The notes: a model not told the origin generated them from the sequence alone. A stretch of DNA of 63,333 bases, filler included, from Reclinomonas americana ATCC 50394 (GCA_048213135.1; 21 parts of 21 records of this genome joined end to end with filler, not necessarily neighbours in it); one strand, 5' to 3'; shown: positions 21,378-29,900, counted from the first letter of the whole stretch. Made by a program: numbers and translations.

Positions 21378-23351
21378 TCACTCCACAAGAAACACTTCAT
21401 AGTCCGCCACAATGAACTCTCGCGATCCCAACAGTGTCGTGTCGTCATATGCTCCACCGTCGGTGCTCCAATAATAGGAAGCGATAGCGTAGTTTGCATT
21501 GCTGTTACAAAAGTCATACAAGTAAATATCGCTGTCGCCAAAGATGGGTCCATATGCTGGCGTGCGAAGAGTGGCCTTCTCCTTGTAGACGCCATGCAGT
21601 GCAAAGCGCCGCGCTCCAGCACCAGGCCACGATGCGGAGAACAGGAAGCTGGAGCACGTCGGATCAGAGCCCCACATCCCACTTGAAGACCACGAGACAG
21701 GCGTGTACCCGCCGCACACTCGTCCCGTCGACGACTTGACCACTACTAGCGTCGGCCTGCAATAAAAACAGGCACACATCCATCAGTCACCAAAAAACAA
21801 CAATCTCTTTCTCTCCTCCTCCACCATCACTCACTCGCGATTGTCACACCGCTGATGGAATGTGGCTGCGGCAAACCCGTCTCGACTTCCCCTGAACAGC
21901 AACGTCAATCTGGGCACACCTCCTCCACCTCGCGCCTCCCGCACCCACTGCAACACCACTCGCGCATCCGCCGCACCCAGCAGATTGCAGTCAATCTTAT
22001 TCTCCGCCCATTCGCGCTCCTCTCGTTCCCTGGCCTCGCGCTCACGCTCCTCCCGCTCCCTGGCCAGCTGCTCTCGTTCCTCCCGCTTCTTGGCTTGGCG
22101 CTCGCGCTTGGTCGCCTCCCGTTCCTGCATCGCTCTTTCGCGTACCTCCAGAGGCTCGAGACGGGCGAGAAGCTGCAGATGGATAGGAGACACGATGAGG
22201 GGAATAGAAATAATCCATCAGCACTCACACAACAGACCTCAGCAACACCTCTCTCGAGAGCTTCTCTCATCCGTCGCTCGGCGGCGAGTTGCTCATCTGT
22301 TGCTTGTCTAGCTTGCTGCTCGCGACTCAATCGCTCTTCAACAGCTTGTCTCGCCTGTTGCTCGGCGGCCGGGCACGCATCTGTAGCTTGTCTCGCACGT
22401 CGCTCATCGGCCAGCTGCTGCTCAACAGCTTGTCTCGCCTCCCTCTCCTGGGCCAGCTGCTCCCTGCTCTCTGCCACCATCTGTGACAGCTCGCGCACTC
22501 GGCCGTGCAGCTGTGTACACATAAGCTGCGTGAGTGACCAACAACATTCACTGACAATTATTCCAAAACTCACCTCTCGCAGCGGTCGCTCCACTCGCAA
22601 CACATCACACACTCGCTCATGCTCCTCCCTCTCCCCACCAATACCACGCCATCCACACCCCAATTCACCACCACGACACACAGTGTGCTGCAGCCGGCAC
22701 TCCGTTTCTGCCACAAAGATACAAGAGAGACACAACATCAGTGTCATGCCACCCCTCTCTCTTGATCAAGCACCACTCACCAAGATGCCGCTGCATCTCC
22801 GCCAGTGCACACCGCTGCTGACATCCACGAGGACACGCCCGCATGCACCCACTCCAGCTGTGCTCCACCATCTCACTCAGCGCCATCCTTGCTCCACATC
22901 CGAGTGGACACTCGCGCAAGCATCCACTCCACTCGTGCTCGGCAGTGCGATCCAGTGTCATCTGCTGTCCACATCTCTCGCATGCATACGGGCACTGCGT
23001 CAAGCCGTGTGTGCGGTAGTAGTCGCCCACCGTCTGTTCGTCCATGGTGAGAAGACAGAGAAACCAAGACAAACAACTCTCCATGACAACACGAACCATG
23101 GGTACGTGGCACAGCGGGCATGTGATCTGTGACGCTCTCTCTCATGTCAACATCACTGGCGACTTGCACATGCAACAAACAACATGCACACCCAACCTTT
23201 ACACTGCGGTACGTCAACAGGTTCCGCGGCAGAGCCTGGTGTACAGTGGCCAGCGACGTGACTCCATCGCCACACAAATCCGCACCAGCCTCCGTCACAT
23301 GTTCACTGTCGCATGAGAACCCCCCAAGGAGAGAGAAGGAAGTCAGTGCAC

Positions 23352-23394
<43 letters not shown>

Positions 23395-23635
23395 CTCTAC
23401 TCTACCGTACTACCTACNNNNNNNNNNNNNNNNNNNNNNNNNNNNNNNNNNNNNNNNNNNNTTAATTAATTAANNNNNNNNNNNNNNNNNNNNNNNNNNN
23501 NNNNNNNNNNNNNNNNNCGTAACCCGTAACCCGTAACCCGTACCGTACCGTACCGTACCGTACCGTACGTACGTACGTACGTACGTACGACGACGACGAC
23601 GACGACGACGACGACGTACGTACGTACGTACGTAC

Positions 23636-23718
<83 letters not shown>

Positions 23719-23823
23719 TCTTGCACTCACCGACACAAATAATGTTGCCCGCTGGCACACAACACGAAATCCGGAGCACACAGATCCTGCAGCACAGAGA
23801 AGAGAAGAGTGAGCATCATCAGT

Positions 23824-26621: not shown

Positions 26622-26664
<43 letters not shown>

Positions 26665-27001
26665 CGCTCTCCAAAACACTCACCAAGCACACTGGGCACA
26701 AATACTCGTCCGCCAACACTCGTGACTCCTCCGCCACATTCTCCATCCACAAACGTGGTGGCTGTACATCCTTCTCTCCCACTTCTGAAGGAGGACGACG
26801 ATGCACAGCGCGCACCACACAAAACACGTATTGTTCCTCACTGTCGCCAGCTGCAGTGAGTCGCATCACTTGCTGCTCGAGAACAATCTGACTGTCATCC
26901 TCTGAAGCAGCAGGAGGAGGAGGAGGAGGAGGAGGAGCAGCTCCACTGCCTTCTCCACCACCACCACCACTGCCTCCAACGTGTGCGTCTTCGAACCCCA
27001 T
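24287..27001 (-). CDS. TRAF-like RING - zinc fingers - coiled coil - TLDc protein, copy B (gap after exon 1)
   Basis: Same exon structure as copy A; LLFKGSQDGF...FHQKCANRG|PTLVVAKS...GPCFG...DYEVFLVE. Confidence 0.85.
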
Positions 27002-27120
27002 TCACACAGATCTTTACAAAGTTGTCGTCCAGGCAGCCAGGACTTCGACACACGATATCGACGTTGACACAGGATCAGCTGCGACTCTCCACTGCAGCAA
27101 CAACAGAACGAGATGATGAT

Positions 27121-29900
27121 TCACTCAACGAGGAAGACTTCGAAGTCTGCCACTTGAAATTCGCACTCTCCCATCAACGTCGCACGGTTATATGTTCCAC
27201 CGTCAGTGCTCGAATAATAGGAGGCGTTGCTGTTGCTGCTGTAATTGCTGTTGCAACTGTCATATAGGATAACATCGCAGTTGCCAAAGACTGGTCCGTA
27301 CTTAGAGTTGTGCCACACGGCACTTGGTTTCTTATCGACTTTTAGCGCAAAGTGTCGCGCACGTGCACCACTGCACGACGCCGAGAACAAGAAGCTGGTG
27401 CCGGATGGATCGGCGGCGTATGCACCACTCCTTGTGACAGACTTCCACGAGACAGGCGTGTATCCGCCACACACTCGCCCCGCCGATGACTTAACCACAA
27501 CCAGTGTCGGTCTGCACACAATCACTCGTCAATCAGACACTGAGCTCAACAAGCGATATCTCTCTCTCATGTCCTCTCACCCGCGATCGTCACATCGCTG
27601 ATGGAATGCGGTTGCAGCAAACCCATCTCGACTTCCCCTGAACAGCAGCGTCAATCTGGGCACATCTCCACCTCGCGCCTGCCGCACCCACTGCAGCACC
27701 AGTCGCGCATCCGCCACGCTCAGAAGATCGCTGCTGTTGATATTCCTCTCCGCTCGCTCCCGCTCCCTCGCCTCGCACTCTCGCTCTTCTTGCACTCTGG
27801 CCCAGTAATCTCGCTCTTTCTGCTCGATGGCTTGCCGCTCGCGTCTAGCCGCCTCACCATCACGCATCTCTCGTTCACGCATCTCCAGCGGCTCAAGACG
27901 GGAGAGCAGCTGCAGATAAACAGGAGAGAGAATGAATTGGGAGGGACGCACTCTACGAATCCATAGACGATTACAAAGCAGACCTCAGCAACATCTCTCT
28001 CGAGCGCATTGCACATGCTACGCTCTGATCCAAGTTGCTGGCGACATTCGGCAAGCAGTTCCATAACATCGGCAAGGCGCTCATTCGCTACCTGCTGCTC
28101 GCGAGTCAATCTCTCCTCAACATCTTGTCTCGCTCGCTGCTCGGCGGCCAGCTGCTGGCGGAACTCGACAAGCATCGCCACACAATCGGCCAGTCGCTCA
28201 TCTGTTGCTTGTCTCGCTCGCTGCTCAGCAACCAGGCGCTCATCCGCAGCTCGCATTTCAGCTAGCATCATCGCATGTCTCGCCTCCCTCTCCTGGGCCA
28301 GCTGCTCTCTGCTCTCAGCCACCATCTGCGACAGCTCACGCACTCGGCCATGCAGCTGTGCACACATCAGCTGCATGAAAGTGACCGGCAGCATGCACTG
28401 CTCGTCATTCCAAACTCACCTCACGCAGCGGTCGCTCTACTCGCAACACATCACACATTCGCTCATGCTCCTCCCTCTCACCAACAATACCACGCCATCC
28501 ACACCCCAGTTCACCACCGCGACACACTGTGTGCTGCAGTCGGCACTCCGTTTCTGCCGCACGAGAACAAATCAGTGTCGTGATACACACTTCTCTCCTT
28601 CAATGCACACTCACCAAGATGCCTCTGCATCTCCGCCAATGAAGATTGCTGCTGGCATCCACGCGGACACGCCCGCATGCACCCACTCCAGCTGTGCTCC
28701 ACCATCTCACTCAGCGCCATCCTTGCTCCACATCCGAGCGGACACTCGCGCAAGCATCCACTCCACTCATGCTCCGCCATCTCACTCAGCGCCATCCGTG
28801 TTCCACACCCGAGTGGACACTGTCGCAAGCATACACTCCACTCATGCTCCGCCGTGCAATCCAGTGTCATCTGCTGTCCACATCTCTCGCATGCATACGG
28901 GCACTGCGTGAGGCCATGCGTGCGGTAATAGTCGCCAACCGTCTGTTTCCAACCCACAGTGAGAAGGGAGAAGCAAGACAAACAACTCTCCATGAACAAG
29001 CAAACCATGGGCGCATGGCACAGCGGGCATGCAATCTGTGGTGCTCCAGCATGTCAACATCAGTGGCAACTTGCACATGCCAACAACAACCACACGCAAC
29101 CTTCACATTGCGGTACGTCAGCTGTATCTTTGGCAGAGCCTGGTGCAGCGTGGCCAGTGATGTGACTCCATCACCACACAAATCCGATCCAGCCTCCGTC
29201 ACATGCTCGCTGTCGCATGCAATCAACGAAGTGAGAGAAGGAAGTCAGTGCACAGCTTGCTCTCTCTCCCTCCCTCCCTCCCTCCCTCCCTCCCTCCCTC
29301 CCTCTCACTCACTCACTCACCGACACAAATAATGCAACCCACTGGCACACAACACGAAATCCGGAGCACACAGATCCTGCAACAGAGAGAAGAGCGAGTA
29401 TAATCAGTGCTCTCTCTCTCTCTCTCTNNNNNNNNNNNNNNNNNNNNNNNNNNNNNNNNNNNNNNNNNNNNTTAATTAATTAANNNNNNNNNNNNNNNNN
29501 NNNNNNNNNNNNNNNNNNNNNNNNNNNCCATCCACAAACGCGGTGGCTGTGCCTCCTTCTCTCCTTCCTCGGATGGACGACGACGATGCACAGCGCGCAC
29601 CACACAAAACACATATTGTTCCTCACTGTCACCAGTGAGTCGCATCACTTGCTGCTCGAGAACAACCTGACTGTCATCCTCTGCAGCAGGAGGAGGAGGA
29701 GGAGGAGGAGGAGCAGCTCCACTGCCTTCTCCACCACCACCGATGCCTCCAACGTGTGCGTCTTCGAAACCGATTCTATTCACAATGTTTTCATGATGTC
29801 CCGTCACGTCAGATTGTCGGGACAGCTTGCTTCTTCCTTGTGCTTGTGTCACGACTCTCACTCTATCTGCAGGCTGCATCACTTCAACACCAGCTTCCAT
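27121..29900 (-). CDS. TRAF-like RING - zinc fingers - coiled coil - TLDc protein, copy C (extra finger, longer coil, start uncertain)
   Basis: Same exon structure; the MGFED start reads IGFED, with in-frame ATGs further upstream (e.g. 29900). Confidence 0.8.

What the first reader, a model, noticed from the sequence alone, without database searches (positions are those of the whole stretch)
21378..29900. Tandem trio of TRAF-like proteins with TLDc replacing the MATH domain
Each gene encodes a variant RING (CxxC...CxxxxHxxCxxH...C), several TRAF/SINA-type zinc fingers, a coiled coil and a C-terminal TLDc. Genes are packed head-to-tail with only ~120-130 bp between them. Canonical TRAFs end in a receptor-binding MATH domain, so TLDc occupies the recognition slot. 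TLDc is known from OXR1/NCOA7 (V-ATPase binding) and interferon-induced IFI44. Inference: E3 ligases that use TLDc for target recognition.
Basis: partly seen in the sequence, partly recalled or inferred. Interest (0 to 1): 0.8.

Follow-up and report, generated by a model that had tools for sequence, protein, structure and literature searches.

The report
Tandem RING-like, zinc-finger, TLDc genes
Three neighbouring copies of an intron-rich protist gene each join a ubiquitin-ligase-like head (RING-like motif and zinc fingers) through a long coiled coil to a TLDc domain, an unstudied domain combination rather than a new kind of system.

Summary
The observation largely holds. On the minus strand, 21378-29900, lie three head-to-tail paralogues. 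I could model each as nine GT-AG exons with no internal stop. Spacers are 119 and 127 nt.

**TLDc tail: solid.**
- Pfam TLD scores 34-57 bits against a cut-off of 24.5.
- The exon 9 model has pLDDT 94.
- All six structure matches with Z of 8 or more are TLDc domains.

**Head: weaker.**
- A RING-like ligand pattern and 4-5 C2HC fingers with TRAF-like spacing are present.
- Pfam zf-TRAF is not significant (E 5-9).
- The RING could not be tested by profile, because its residues are spread over four exons.
- A parallel trimer model of the helical exon passes its controls (0.71 against 0.00).

**Caveats.**
- Each gene crosses an assembly linker.
- No RNA data were available.

**Context.** None of the 150 nearest TLDc representatives has this head. 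However, 14 carry a BTB_2 domain and one carries a RING.

**Reading.** Most likely these are oligomeric E3-ligase-like proteins whose TLDc docks a partner or selects a target. Ligase activity and the target are inferred only. I class it as a new variant of a known kind, of moderate interest. Earlier notes of this scan report RING/TRAF-finger/BTB/TLDc fusions in Naegleria, which I did not check.

The parts
27121..29900 (-). Gene 1. Exon 1 is 29900-29528, cut by the linker at 29428-29527. Exons 2-9 are 29376-29321, 29209-29101, 29035-29006, 28942-28615, 28553-28420, 28370-27984, 27909-27581 and 27511-27121.
   Evidence: Model: 587 aa from exon 2, no internal stop, all introns GT-AG. The exon 1 match comes from tblastn. 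The first in-frame ATG was read.
24287..27001 (-). Gene 2, 601 aa. Exons are 27001-26684, 26251-26196, 26114-26006, 25942-25913, 25847-25595, 25538-25405, 25336-25169, 25096-24759 and 24686-24287. The linker at 26408-26507 lies in intron 1.
21378..24159 (-). Gene 3, 623 aa. Exons are 24159-23875, 23786-23731, 23305-23197, 23126-23097, 23033-22781, 22707-22574, 22525-22238, 22172-21835 and 21756-21378. The linker at 23418-23517 lies in intron 2.
29006..29376 (-). Gene 1, RING-like segment on exons 2-4. The first CxxC would lie at the end of exon 1, inside the gap. In genes 2 and 3 the complete pattern runs from the end of exon 1 to exon 4.
   Evidence: The regex match in genes 2 and 3 is C-x2-C-x10-C-x4-H-x2-C-x2-H-x38-C-x2-C. 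No profile test was possible. The same residues can also be read as single C2HC fingers.
28420..28942 (-). Gene 1, exons 5-6. They carry five tandem C2HC zinc fingers. Genes 2 and 3 have four, because gene 1 carries a 75-nt unit duplication.
   Evidence: Finger spacing is. The 75-nt repeat spacing is family D1. Pfam gives zf_UBZ 24.5 bits against a cut-off of 25.6, and zf-TRAF is not significant. The nearest Atlas clusters are zf-TRAF at 0.92.
27715..28370 (-). Gene 1, helical region rich in E, R, Q and A. It covers exon 7 and the first two thirds of exon 8. Its length is 184 aa in gene 1, 118 aa in gene 2 and 153 aa in gene 3.
   Evidence: Composition and heptad score are. The trimer model of exon 7 scores 0.71 against a best control of 0.00 and is parallel and in register.
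27121..27714 (-). Gene 1, TLDc domain. It is split by intron 8 (27580-27512) into the tail of exon 8 and exon 9.
   Evidence: Pfam TLD on exon 9: 56.7 bits, profile positions 53-169. Tail of exon 8: profile positions 11-51, 13.7 bits. AF2 pLDDT is 94.4. VIA Z is 13.9 to NCOA7B.
24287..24686 (-). Gene 2, exon 9 (TLDc, C-terminal two thirds).
   Evidence: Pfam TLD 34.3 bits, E 2.8e-8.
21378..21756 (-). Gene 3, exon 9 (TLDc, C-terminal two thirds).
   Evidence: Pfam TLD 40.7 bits, E 3.1e-10.
27002..27120 (-). Spacer between gene 1 and gene 2, 119 nt. Its first ~75 nt are conserved with the next spacer. A pyrimidine-rich stretch ending in CAG ends at 27092.
24160..24286 (-). Spacer between gene 2 and gene 3, 127 nt.

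Best explanation
This is a lineage-specific tandem array of three paralogous protein-coding genes in an intron-rich, flagellated eukaryote that has no close annotated relative.

**Protein layout.** Each protein has, in order:
- about 100 residues of low-complexity N-terminus with a poly-proline run;
- a RING-like C3HCHC2 motif;
- four or five tandem C2HC zinc fingers with TRAF-like spacing;
- a 120-185-residue helical stalk that can be modelled as a parallel coiled coil;
- a C-terminal TLDc domain.

**Most likely mechanism (inferred).** The stalk oligomerises the protein. The RING-like head and fingers recruit an E2 and/or bind ubiquitin. The TLDc tail docks the assembly on its partner or substrate. 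By analogy with every characterised TLDc protein, the first candidate partner is the V1 sector of the V-ATPase.

**Shown:** the gene structure, the purifying selection, the TLDc identity and fold, the finger pattern, and a passing self-association model.
**Inferred:** RING function, ligase activity, the single transcript, and the partner.
For: **Gene structure and selection**
- Three coherent nine-exon models have conserved intron positions and phases and no internal stop.
- dN/dS is below 1 in every region: fingers 0.09-0.12, RING-like 0.13-0.31, helix 0.16-0.35, TLDc 0.31-0.32. All parts are therefore maintained as coding.

**Domains span exon junctions**
- The TLD profile runs from the tail of exon 8 (positions 11-51) into exon 9 (positions 50/53-169).
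- Exon 8 also holds the end of the helix.
- One finger spans exons 5/6, and the RING-like pattern spans exons 1-4.

**TLDc identity**
- Pfam scores are 56.7, 34.3 and 40.7 bits against a cut-off of 24.5.
- AF2 pLDDT is 94.4.
- Foldseek ranks 1-15 are all TLDc structures at probability 1.00 and TMq 0.59-0.68, although none reaches E <= 1e-3.
- In VIA-align, all 6 chains with Z >= 8 are TLDc: NCOA7B 13.9, OXR2 12.3, Skywalker 11.8, mEAK7 11.2, Oxr1 10.9, Rtc5p 9.9. The next chain scores 5.1.
- The family profile hits 10 PDB sequences at E <= 0.01, all TLDc, best mEAK-7 at 2.2e-9.

**Fingers**
- 6 pattern matches were found; 0 of 2000 shuffles reached 6.
- The nearest Atlas clusters are zf-TRAF (0.92; 10 of the ten best share that family or clan), which is a lead only.

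**Stalk**
- The trimer model scores 0.71 against a best control of 0.00.
- The tool states that this mark was reached by 21 of 30 proteins solved as pairs of one chain and by 0 of 23 solved as single chains.
- The runs agree in at least 86% of contacts and the partner's pLDDT is at least 65. Contacts are in register with 3-4 spacing.

**Context**
- The nearest TLDc domains elsewhere are fused to BTB_2 in 14 of 150 cases, BACK in 1, RING plus kinase in 1 and a near-threshold B-box in 1.
- All five mammalian TLDc proteins bind the V-ATPase (PMC8608904, abstract and passages read).
Against: - Pfam zf-TRAF is not significant, and no RING, Sina or B-box model hit any single exon.
- The ZnF exon has no significant PDB sequence match, and its AF2 model is poor at pLDDT 46.
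- The RING-like motif departs from the canonical spacing, with 4 residues between C3 and H4 and His as the sixth ligand. It can also be parsed as two ordinary C2HC fingers.
- The heptad score of the helix is only about 0.2-1.4 sd above composition-matched shuffles, and its second half looks like an E/R single helix.
- The trimer job differs from the tool's calibration, which used two copies, and coiled coils may pass from memory.
- No transcript evidence exists.
- Every gene crosses an assembly linker.
- A contig end carries an exon-1-like fragment of the wrong paralogue type. Which exon 1 belongs to which gene body is therefore not certain.
- No protein with the same head plus TLDc was found elsewhere, so conservation of the whole architecture is untested.
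Confidence: 0.45

Rival explanations
1. Non-catalytic adaptor. The RING-like motif is degenerate or is simply two more fingers. The finger array binds ubiquitin chains, as UBZ-type fingers do. The protein would then be an oligomeric scaffold linking ubiquitinated cargo to whatever the TLDc binds, without ligase activity of its own.
For: - The best Pfam hit of the finger exon is zf_UBZ at 23.2-24.5 bits, just under its cut-off of 25.6, in all three genes.
- The RING-like residues also fit the single-finger pattern.
- The C3-H4 spacing of 4 and the His at ligand 6 are unusual. The canonical spacing is recalled, not tested.
Against: - zf_UBZ stays below its curated cut-off.
- The stretch CP[V]CL...P..L.C..G.H..C..H, followed later by CPLC, keeps all eight ligand positions in both genes where it can be read.
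- It evolves under purifying selection, with dN/dS 0.13-0.31.
Confidence: 0.25
2. The TLDc acts on its own account, for example in protection against oxidative stress or in regulating V-ATPase assembly as Oxr1 does. The fingers would bind nucleic acid or another ligand, so the protein has nothing to do with ubiquitin.
For: - TLDc gene expansions in ciliates are interpreted in the literature as oxidative-stress adaptations (PMC7702705 and PMC11834939, passages read).
- An HSP20 stress gene lies directly upstream.
- The weak PDB matches of the finger exon are to C2H2 DNA-binding fingers at E 0.017-0.12, which is not significant.
Against: - The finger spacing is C2HC with an 11-residue loop, not C2H2.
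- The recurrent BTB_2 and RING partners of the nearest TLDc domains point to ubiquitin-system contexts.
Confidence: 0.12
3. Gene-model artefact. The finger part (exons 1-6) and the helix-TLDc part (exons 7-9) are separate transcription units, or are alternatively processed, so no single polypeptide has both.
For: - The exon 6/7 junction is the one junction that no domain spans.
- No RNA run was available.
- Spacers between genes are very short in this genome (119-127 nt).
- ATG codons occur in or near intron 6 (the ORF 27720-28394 starts inside intron 6).
Against: - In all three copies exon 6 ends in frame, without a stop, at a consensus GTGAGT donor. A CAG acceptor lies 48-68 nt on and keeps the frame.
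- The true gene boundaries in the array have a stop codon and about 120 nt of spacer.
- Both halves are duplicated as one 2.8-3.1 kb unit.
Confidence: 0.08
4. Assembly artefact or decaying copies. The three copies would be alleles or collapsed repeats placed in tandem by scaffolding, or pseudogenes.
For: - The window is a chain of short contigs with linkers.
- One contig end carries a foreign-type exon 1 fragment.
- Gene 1 lacks the ATG that genes 2 and 3 use.
Against: - Each of two contigs physically joins the 3' end of one copy, a spacer and the 5' exon(s) of the next. Head-to-tail order is therefore seen within contigs.
- The copies differ by 32-35% of residues in the TLDc and by large indels in the helix. 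That is far beyond allelic variation.
- All copies keep open frames, with dN/dS well below 1.
Confidence: 0.05

Closest known systems
TRAF family (TRAF2-7; TRAF6 as type)
   Same: The order of parts matches: an N-terminal RING-like motif, a run of C2HC zinc fingers with C-x2-6-C-x11-H-x3-4-C spacing, a parallel coiled coil that can be modelled as a trimer, then one globular C-terminal domain.
   Different: The C-terminal domain is TLDc, not MATH/TRAF-C, which is the domain that defines the family. Pfam zf-TRAF is not significant. The RING spacing is atypical. The TRAF layout itself is recalled knowledge.
TRIM (tripartite motif) proteins
   Same: It shares a RING, zinc-binding modules, a long coiled coil and a variable C-terminal recognition domain. 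It also shares tandem duplication with a faster-changing C-terminal domain: TLDc is 65-68% identical between copies, against 93-95% for the fingers.
   Different: No B-box was detected. The coiled coil was modelled parallel and in register, whereas TRIM coiled coils are antiparallel dimers (recalled). The lower divergence of the 5' half is also seen at synonymous sites (dS 0.25-0.3 against 0.7-0.9), so it is at least partly due to gene conversion or age, not to selection alone.
Characterised TLDc proteins: mEAK-7/TLDC1, OXR1/Oxr1p, NCOA7, TBC1D24/Skywalker, Rtc5p
   Same: The fold is the same: Z 9.9-13.9, rmsd 1.7-2.7 A over 108-112 residues. The Pfam family is the same. The family profile reaches them by sequence, best mEAK-7 at 2.2e-9.
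   Different: Those proteins carry TBC, LysM/GRAM or myristoyl/EF-like N-terminal parts and no ubiquitin-ligase-like head (recalled). Identity to them is only 16-23%. V-ATPase binding is untested here.
BTB_2 (KCTD-type)-TLDc proteins of protists, e.g. 'KCTD12' of Symbiodinium natans (CAE7285808.1) and PROFUN_02036 of Planoprotostelium fungivorum (PRP81202.1)
   Same: They are among the nearest TLDc relatives: 14 of the 150 best representatives carry BTB_2. They too put TLDc beside a module known from ubiquitin-ligase adaptors.
   Different: They have a BTB in place of the RING-like, finger and coiled-coil parts, and they often carry two TLDc domains. None matched the head of the window's proteins.
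Anaeramoeba ignava KAJ5068729.1 (RING-kinase-5xTLDc). Earlier scan notes also describe Naegleria RING/TRAF-finger-BTB-pentapeptide-TLDc proteins.
   Same: RING and TLDc sit on one chain. Pfam Sina_RING, zf-RING_5 and TLD all hit P0018.
   Different: The middle parts differ: kinase, or BTB plus pentapeptide repeats. There is no detectable sequence similarity of the heads. I did not check the Naegleria proteins myself.
MATH domain in TRAFs and in SPOP-type MATH-BTB adaptors (parallel, not kinship)
   Same: One globular recognition domain is found both behind a RING/finger/coiled-coil head and next to a BTB. TLDc shows the same two contexts (this window).
   Different: TLDc and MATH are unrelated folds. 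The SPOP and TRAF facts are recalled, not tested here.

Membership tests
TLDc domain family (Pfam PF07534) | Profile match above the curated cut-off | tested here: met
   Exon 9 ORFs score 56.7, 34.3 and 40.7 bits against a cut-off of 24.5, covering profile positions 50/53-169 of 170. The exon 8 tail of gene 1 covers positions 11-51 at 13.7 bits.
TLDc domain family (Pfam PF07534) | TLDc fold | tested here: met
   AF2 model of gene 1 exon 9 has pLDDT 94.4. In VIA-align, 6 of 6 chains with Z >= 8 are TLDc (Z 9.9-13.9) and the next chain scores 5.1. Foldseek ranks 1-15 are TLDc at probability 1.00. Only the C-terminal two thirds of the domain was modelled.
TLDc domain family (Pfam PF07534) | Binding to the V-ATPase (property of the characterised members) | not testable with these tools
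   No V-ATPase subunit of this organism is at hand. The literature basis is PMC8608904 (abstract and passages).
TRAF family | C-terminal MATH/TRAF-C domain | tested here: not met
   The C-terminus is TLDc. No MATH hit appeared in any exon ORF.
TRAF family | TRAF-type zinc fingers (Pfam zf-TRAF) | tested here: inconclusive
   zf-TRAF gives E 8.8 and 4.9 (7.6 and 8.4 bits, cut-off 27) on exon 5 of genes 2 and 3, and is not listed for gene 1. The spacing pattern fits. The Atlas neighbours are zf-TRAF clusters at 0.92 with 163 shared features, which is a lead only. The AF2 model is too poor to search.
TRAF family | Coiled coil that trimerises | tested here: inconclusive
   The three-copy model of exon 7 scores 0.71 against a best control of 0.00, parallel and in register. 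A dimer was not tested. The heptad statistic is not above shuffles.
RING-type E3 ligases | Eight zinc ligands in cross-brace spacing, recognised by a RING profile | not testable with these tools
   The pattern is present in genes 2 and 3 with an atypical C-x4-H and a His at ligand 6. The residues lie on four exons, so no profile or fold tool could be given the spliced sequence. Single exons gave no hit.
RING-type E3 ligases | E2-dependent ubiquitin transfer | not testable with these tools
   This needs a biochemical assay.
TRIM family | B-box zinc finger between RING and coiled coil | tested here: inconclusive
   No zf-B_box hit on any exon, even at E <= 10 for exons 5 and 6. The fingers are C2HC repeats.

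The most novel reading that the evidence does not exclude
TLDc is a general targeting or substrate-recognition module of ubiquitin ligases in protists. It would fill the same two architectural niches as MATH: behind a RING/finger/coiled-coil head (this array) and beside a BTB Cul3-adaptor module (the nearest relatives). These ligases would put the V-ATPase, or proteins assembled on it, under ubiquitin control.
Probability: 0.2. Interest if true: 0.7.

Novelty: new variant of a known kind. Interest (0 to 1): 0.45.

Why it matters
What the TLDc domain does beyond binding the V-ATPase is still open. 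Here it is naturally fused to a ubiquitin-ligase-like, oligomerising head. Its nearest relatives are repeatedly fused to BTB modules. Together these give a concrete, testable idea: TLDc can serve as the targeting end of ubiquitin ligases. If that holds, it would link V-ATPase regulation or organelle stress responses to ubiquitination in protists. It would also give a second example, after MATH, of one recognition domain reused by RING-type and Cullin-type ligase architectures. If it does not hold, this is one more lineage-specific domain shuffle.

Tried and rejected
- **Whole genome:** none is held for this window.
- **RNA evidence:** no RNA holder was listed for 26508-29427.
- **Homologues of the finger exon:**
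  - The word-based search of longer proteins found none.
  - The metagenome scan gave 52 pattern matches and 2 loci at 41% identity over 43 residues. I examined L002; its match lies antisense to a long ORF on what looks like a bacterial contig (my reading, not tested). I did not examine L001.
  - The scan's own index held no look-alike.
- **PDB by sequence:**
  - The finger exon and its 3-row profile gave nothing significant.
  - Exon 9 alone and the 3-row profile gave no hit.
  - Only the 64-row family profile worked.
- **AF2 of the finger exon** with three rows gave pLDDT 46.2, which is unusable, so no fold search was run on it.
- **phmmer** of the spliced RING-plus-finger region against the 150 TLDc representatives gave no hit at E <= 10.
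- **Regex for fingers or RING** in those 150 found only P0018's RING.
- **Word-based search with the TLDc profile**, longer proteins, returned 6 proteins carrying TLD with or without BTB only.
- **Rfam and tRNA scans** of the window found nothing, so there was no help on taxon or on a spliced leader.
- **Bacterial promoter/terminator scan** was not informative for a eukaryote.
- **Intron identity between copies** was inconclusive: with my scoring, an unrelated spacer pair also reached 80%.
- **Organism placement** with the KAP ORF gave a best hit of 45% to an unnamed ENA protein, and 33-35% to a glaucophyte transcript and to animals. The organism is not placed.
- **Antisense ORFs of 228-425 aa** over the genes have no family hit and are rejected as genes.
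- **N-myristoylation of the MG start** was rejected on the recalled PROSITE rule (Phe after Gly); this was not tested.
- **Papers.** Searches were TLDc with 'TRAF-type zinc finger' (0), 'TLDc domain' with RING, E3 and architecture (0), zf-TRAF with TLD (0), TLDc with Naegleria (0), and TLDc with ubiquitin ligase and KCTD (1, irrelevant). The first search for TLDc with 'traf' only matched 'trafficking'.

Full report
**What the window is.**
- The 63,333-base window is not one continuous sequence. It contains 40 runs of exactly 44 N, in 20 pairs, each pair flanking TTAATTAATTAA. It is therefore a chain of 2-4 kb contigs joined by linkers.
- The DNA is eukaryotic. The genes studied here have short GT-AG introns. 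Other ORFs in the window match kinesin-associated protein, EDRF1, an acyltransferase, an ammonium transporter, ankyrin repeats and HSP20.
- The kinesin-associated-protein ORF is at most 45% identical to an unnamed metagenome protein and 33-35% identical to anything named. The organism has no close annotated relative in the searched collection, and I could not place it.
- No whole genome is held. No RNA run was listed.

**The observation.**
21378 is the last base of the third gene's stop codon. 29900 is the first in-frame ATG of the first gene.
- An alignment of the three gene bodies and three-frame translations let me build nine-exon models. All introns are GT-AG; those without a linker are 48-111 nt. 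Intron positions and phases are conserved. There is no internal stop.
- Gene 2 gives 601 aa and gene 3 gives 623 aa. Gene 1 gives 587 aa from exon 2, plus a partial exon 1.
- tblastn with gene 3 finds only these three copies in the window.
- The repeat unit is 2.8-3.1 kb.
- Spacers from stop to the next ATG are 119 and 127 nt. The HSP20 gene upstream ends 126 nt before gene 1.
- Each gene crosses one linker, in a (GA)n-rich intron: intron 1 in genes 1 and 2, intron 2 in gene 3.
- Two contigs each physically carry the 3' part of one copy, the spacer and the first exon(s) of the next. The head-to-tail order is therefore real.
- Which exon 1 belongs to which body depends on the scaffold. One contig end (26340-26407) holds an exon-1-like fragment that matches gene 3's variant better than gene 2's. 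The array may hold more copies, or that contig end may be misassembled.

**The C-terminal domain.**
- The exon 9 ORFs hit Pfam TLD at 56.7, 34.3 and 40.7 bits (cut-off 24.5), covering profile positions 50/53-169 of 170.
- The tail of exon 8 in gene 1 covers positions 11-51 at a weak 13.7 bits. It reads like the consensus that precedes the exon 9 part in relatives. The domain is thus split by intron 8, which ties exons 8 and 9 together.
- With a 64-row alignment, AF2 models gene 1 exon 9 at pLDDT 94.4.
- Foldseek ranks 1-15 are all TLDc structures at probability 1.00 and TMq 0.59-0.68. The E-values are only 4.5e-3 to 6.5e-2.
- VIA-align over 48,161 chains gives Z >= 8 for six chains, all TLDc: NCOA7B 13.9, OXR2 12.3, Skywalker 11.8, mEAK7 11.2, Oxr1 10.9, Rtc5p 9.9. 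The next chain scores 5.1.
- The exon alone finds no PDB sequence. The family profile finds 10 at E <= 0.01, all TLDc, best mEAK-7 at 2.2e-9.
- The 30 nearest named Atlas clusters are all TLD.

**The head.**
- In gene 1 the first Cys pair would lie in the gap.
- The pattern keeps eight ligand positions. It departs from the canonical spacing (recalled) in the four residues between C3 and H4 and in the His at ligand 6. The same residues can also be parsed as ordinary C2HC fingers.
- Because the ligands are spread over four exons, no profile or fold tool could be given this segment. Its RING nature is untested.
- Exons 5-6 carry four fingers with spacing C-x2-6-C-x11-H-x3-4-C. Gene 1 has five, through a 75-nt unit duplication.
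- In the 200-residue Cys/His-rich region there are 6 non-overlapping matches. Shuffles give a mean of 0.41 and a maximum of 3; 0 of 2000 reach 6.
- Pfam does not call the fingers TRAF-type. zf-TRAF gives E 8.8 and 4.9, and the best hit is zf_UBZ at 23.2-24.5 bits, just below its cut-off of 25.6.
- The language-model search puts the exon nearest to zf-TRAF clusters (0.92, 163 shared features, recognition value below the tool's mark), which is a lead only.
- PDB sequence searches and the AF2 model of this exon were uninformative.
- I therefore call them C2HC fingers of TRAF/UBZ-like spacing, not proven TRAF-type fingers.

**The stalk.**
- Exon 7 and most of exon 8 encode 118-184 residues rich in E, R, Q and A. 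Length differences between copies arise from repeat-unit indels.
- A simple heptad score is only about 0.2-1.4 sd above composition-matched shuffles. The second half looks like an E/R single helix.
- A three-copy model of gene 1 exon 7 passes the tool's test. The score is 0.71 and the best of 3 controls is 0.00.
- The tool states that this mark was reached by 21 of 30 proteins solved as pairs of one chain and by 0 of 23 solved as single chains.
- The runs agree in at least 86% of contacts and the partner's pLDDT is at least 65. Contacts are parallel, in register and spaced 3-4 residues.
- The tool notes that three copies are unlike its calibration and that a pass may come from memory. A dimer was not tested.

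**Selection and history.**
- Pairwise dN/dS is below 1 everywhere: fingers 0.09-0.12, RING-like 0.13-0.31, helix 0.16-0.35, TLDc 0.31-0.32. All parts are kept as coding sequence, and there is no sign of overall positive selection on the TLDc.
- The TLDc is much more diverged (65-68% identical residues) than the fingers (93-95%).
- Synonymous divergence differs in the same direction (dS 0.25-0.3 in the 5' half, 0.7-0.9 in the 3' half). Homogenisation of the 5' half by gene conversion, or a mosaic age, explains at least part of the contrast.
- Within exon 9, invariant positions are 35 of 55 in strands, 31 of 68 in loops and 1 of 6 in the short helix. That is ordinary.

**Relatives and the architecture elsewhere.**
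- A profile of the three exon 9 sequences finds 2625 representatives at E <= 1e-3 among 1.84 billion, of which 4 are at E <= 1e-30. The best are unnamed metagenome proteins.
- I scanned the 150 listed against Pfam: 60 at E <= 1e-3 and 90 at E <= 1e-5.
  - None has zf-TRAF.
  - 14 have BTB_2.
  - One has BACK.
  - One has RING plus a kinase and five TLDc stretches (Anaeramoeba ignava).
  - One has a B-box at 24.0 bits against a cut-off of 24.1.
  - One has Ras, and one has Dynamin_N.
  - Many are multi-TLDc.
- Named BTB_2-TLDc examples are 'KCTD12' of Symbiodinium natans and a Planoprotostelium protein.
- phmmer with the spliced head found nothing among the 150.
- A regex found a RING only in the Anaeramoeba protein.
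- Word-based searches and a metagenome scan found no relative of the finger exon.
- The exact architecture was therefore not found elsewhere. However, only the top 150 of 2625 TLDc hits could be inspected, so this is weak evidence of rarity.
- Earlier notes of this scan describe RING/TRAF-finger-BTB-pentapeptide-TLDc proteins in Naegleria. I did not verify them.
- Paper searches found nothing on TLDc joined to TRAF-type fingers, RING or KCTD modules. Papers on ciliates report TLDc gene expansions read as oxidative-stress adaptations (passages).

**How it most likely works.**
- Shown: three maintained genes, a genuine TLDc tail, a zinc-finger array and a stalk that models as a parallel oligomer.
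- Inferred: the RING-like head recruits an E2 and/or the fingers bind ubiquitin, the stalk brings several heads and tails together, and the TLDc docks the assembly.
- The first candidate partner is the V-ATPase V1 sector. All five mammalian TLDc proteins bind the V-ATPase (PMC8608904, abstract and passages). The solved complexes are the best structural matches.
- The repeated pairing of the nearest TLDc domains with BTB_2 supports a recognition or targeting role within ubiquitin-ligase architectures. It parallels MATH in TRAFs and in MATH-BTB adaptors (recalled).
- I put this reading at 0.45.
- The main rival is a non-catalytic ubiquitin-binding adaptor (0.25).
- Further rivals are a ubiquitin-unrelated role (0.12), split transcripts (0.08), and an assembly artefact or decay (0.05).

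**Comparison and verdict.**
- It works like a TRAF or TRIM in layout. It is not a TRAF, because the defining MATH domain is absent. It was not shown to be a TRIM, because no B-box was found.
- It is a member of the TLDc family by profile and by fold.
- I class it as a new variant of a known kind: known modules in a combination that I could not find described or deposited.
- It is moderately interesting, because it offers a testable hypothesis for TLDc function.
- The head's identity and the single-transcript assumption remain unproven.

Noticed in passing
window, 20 sites (e.g. 20312-20411, 23418-23517, 26408-26507, 29428-29527): Paired 44-N runs flank TTAATTAATTAA. The window is therefore a chain of 2-4 kb contigs joined by six-frame-stop linkers, not a continuous sequence. 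The linkers near this locus sit in (GA)n or (CA)n microsatellites.
   Followed up: partly
window 26340-26407 (-): The end of the contig that carries gene 2's body holds a fragment of exon 1. It matches gene 3's variant better than gene 2's own exon 1, has a 1-nt deletion, and then diverges. This points to misassembly at the contig end, or to more copies in the array than the three seen.
   Followed up: partly
window 21378-29376 (-), 5' half against 3' half of the genes: Synonymous divergence between copies is about three times lower in exons 1-6 (dS 0.25-0.3; one pair reaches 0.53 in the RING-like segment) than in exons 7-9 (0.7-0.9). This suggests gene conversion of the 5' half or a mosaic duplication history.
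   Followed up: partly
window 27092-27120 and 24258-24286 (-): In both spacers, the 29 nt after the stop codon are conserved and end in a pyrimidine-rich stretch plus CAG, which looks like a splice acceptor. With only 119-127 nt between genes, this raises the question of polycistronic transcription with trans-splicing. No RNA data were available to test it.
   Followed up: no
window 29774-29900 (-): Gene 1 has Ile where genes 2 and 3 have their start Met. It could instead start about 42 codons upstream at 29900, which would give it a unique N-terminal extension.
   Followed up: no
window 28610-28947 (-): Gene 1 carries a 75-nt tandem duplication that adds one complete 25-residue zinc finger, giving five fingers instead of four.
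   Followed up: yes
window 30027-30569 (-): A small heat-shock protein gene (Pfam HSP20, E 4.8e-22 on its second exon ORF) lies on the same strand directly upstream, 126 nt from gene 1's ATG.
   Followed up: partly
window 21855-23132, 24779-25816, 28009-28911, 28646-29332 (+): Long ORFs of 228-425 aa run antisense to the three genes. They have no Pfam hit and are probably a by-product of the purine-rich coding strand.
   Followed up: yes
window 425-1717 (-): The kinesin-associated protein (KAP) ORF shows that the organism builds cilia or flagella. Its best named relatives are only 33-35% identical, so the lineage is poorly represented in protein databases.
   Followed up: partly
window ~18000-32000 against ~32000-46000: GC skew is strongly negative and then strongly positive, with a switch near 32 kb. 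This fits long same-strand gene runs that diverge there.
   Followed up: no
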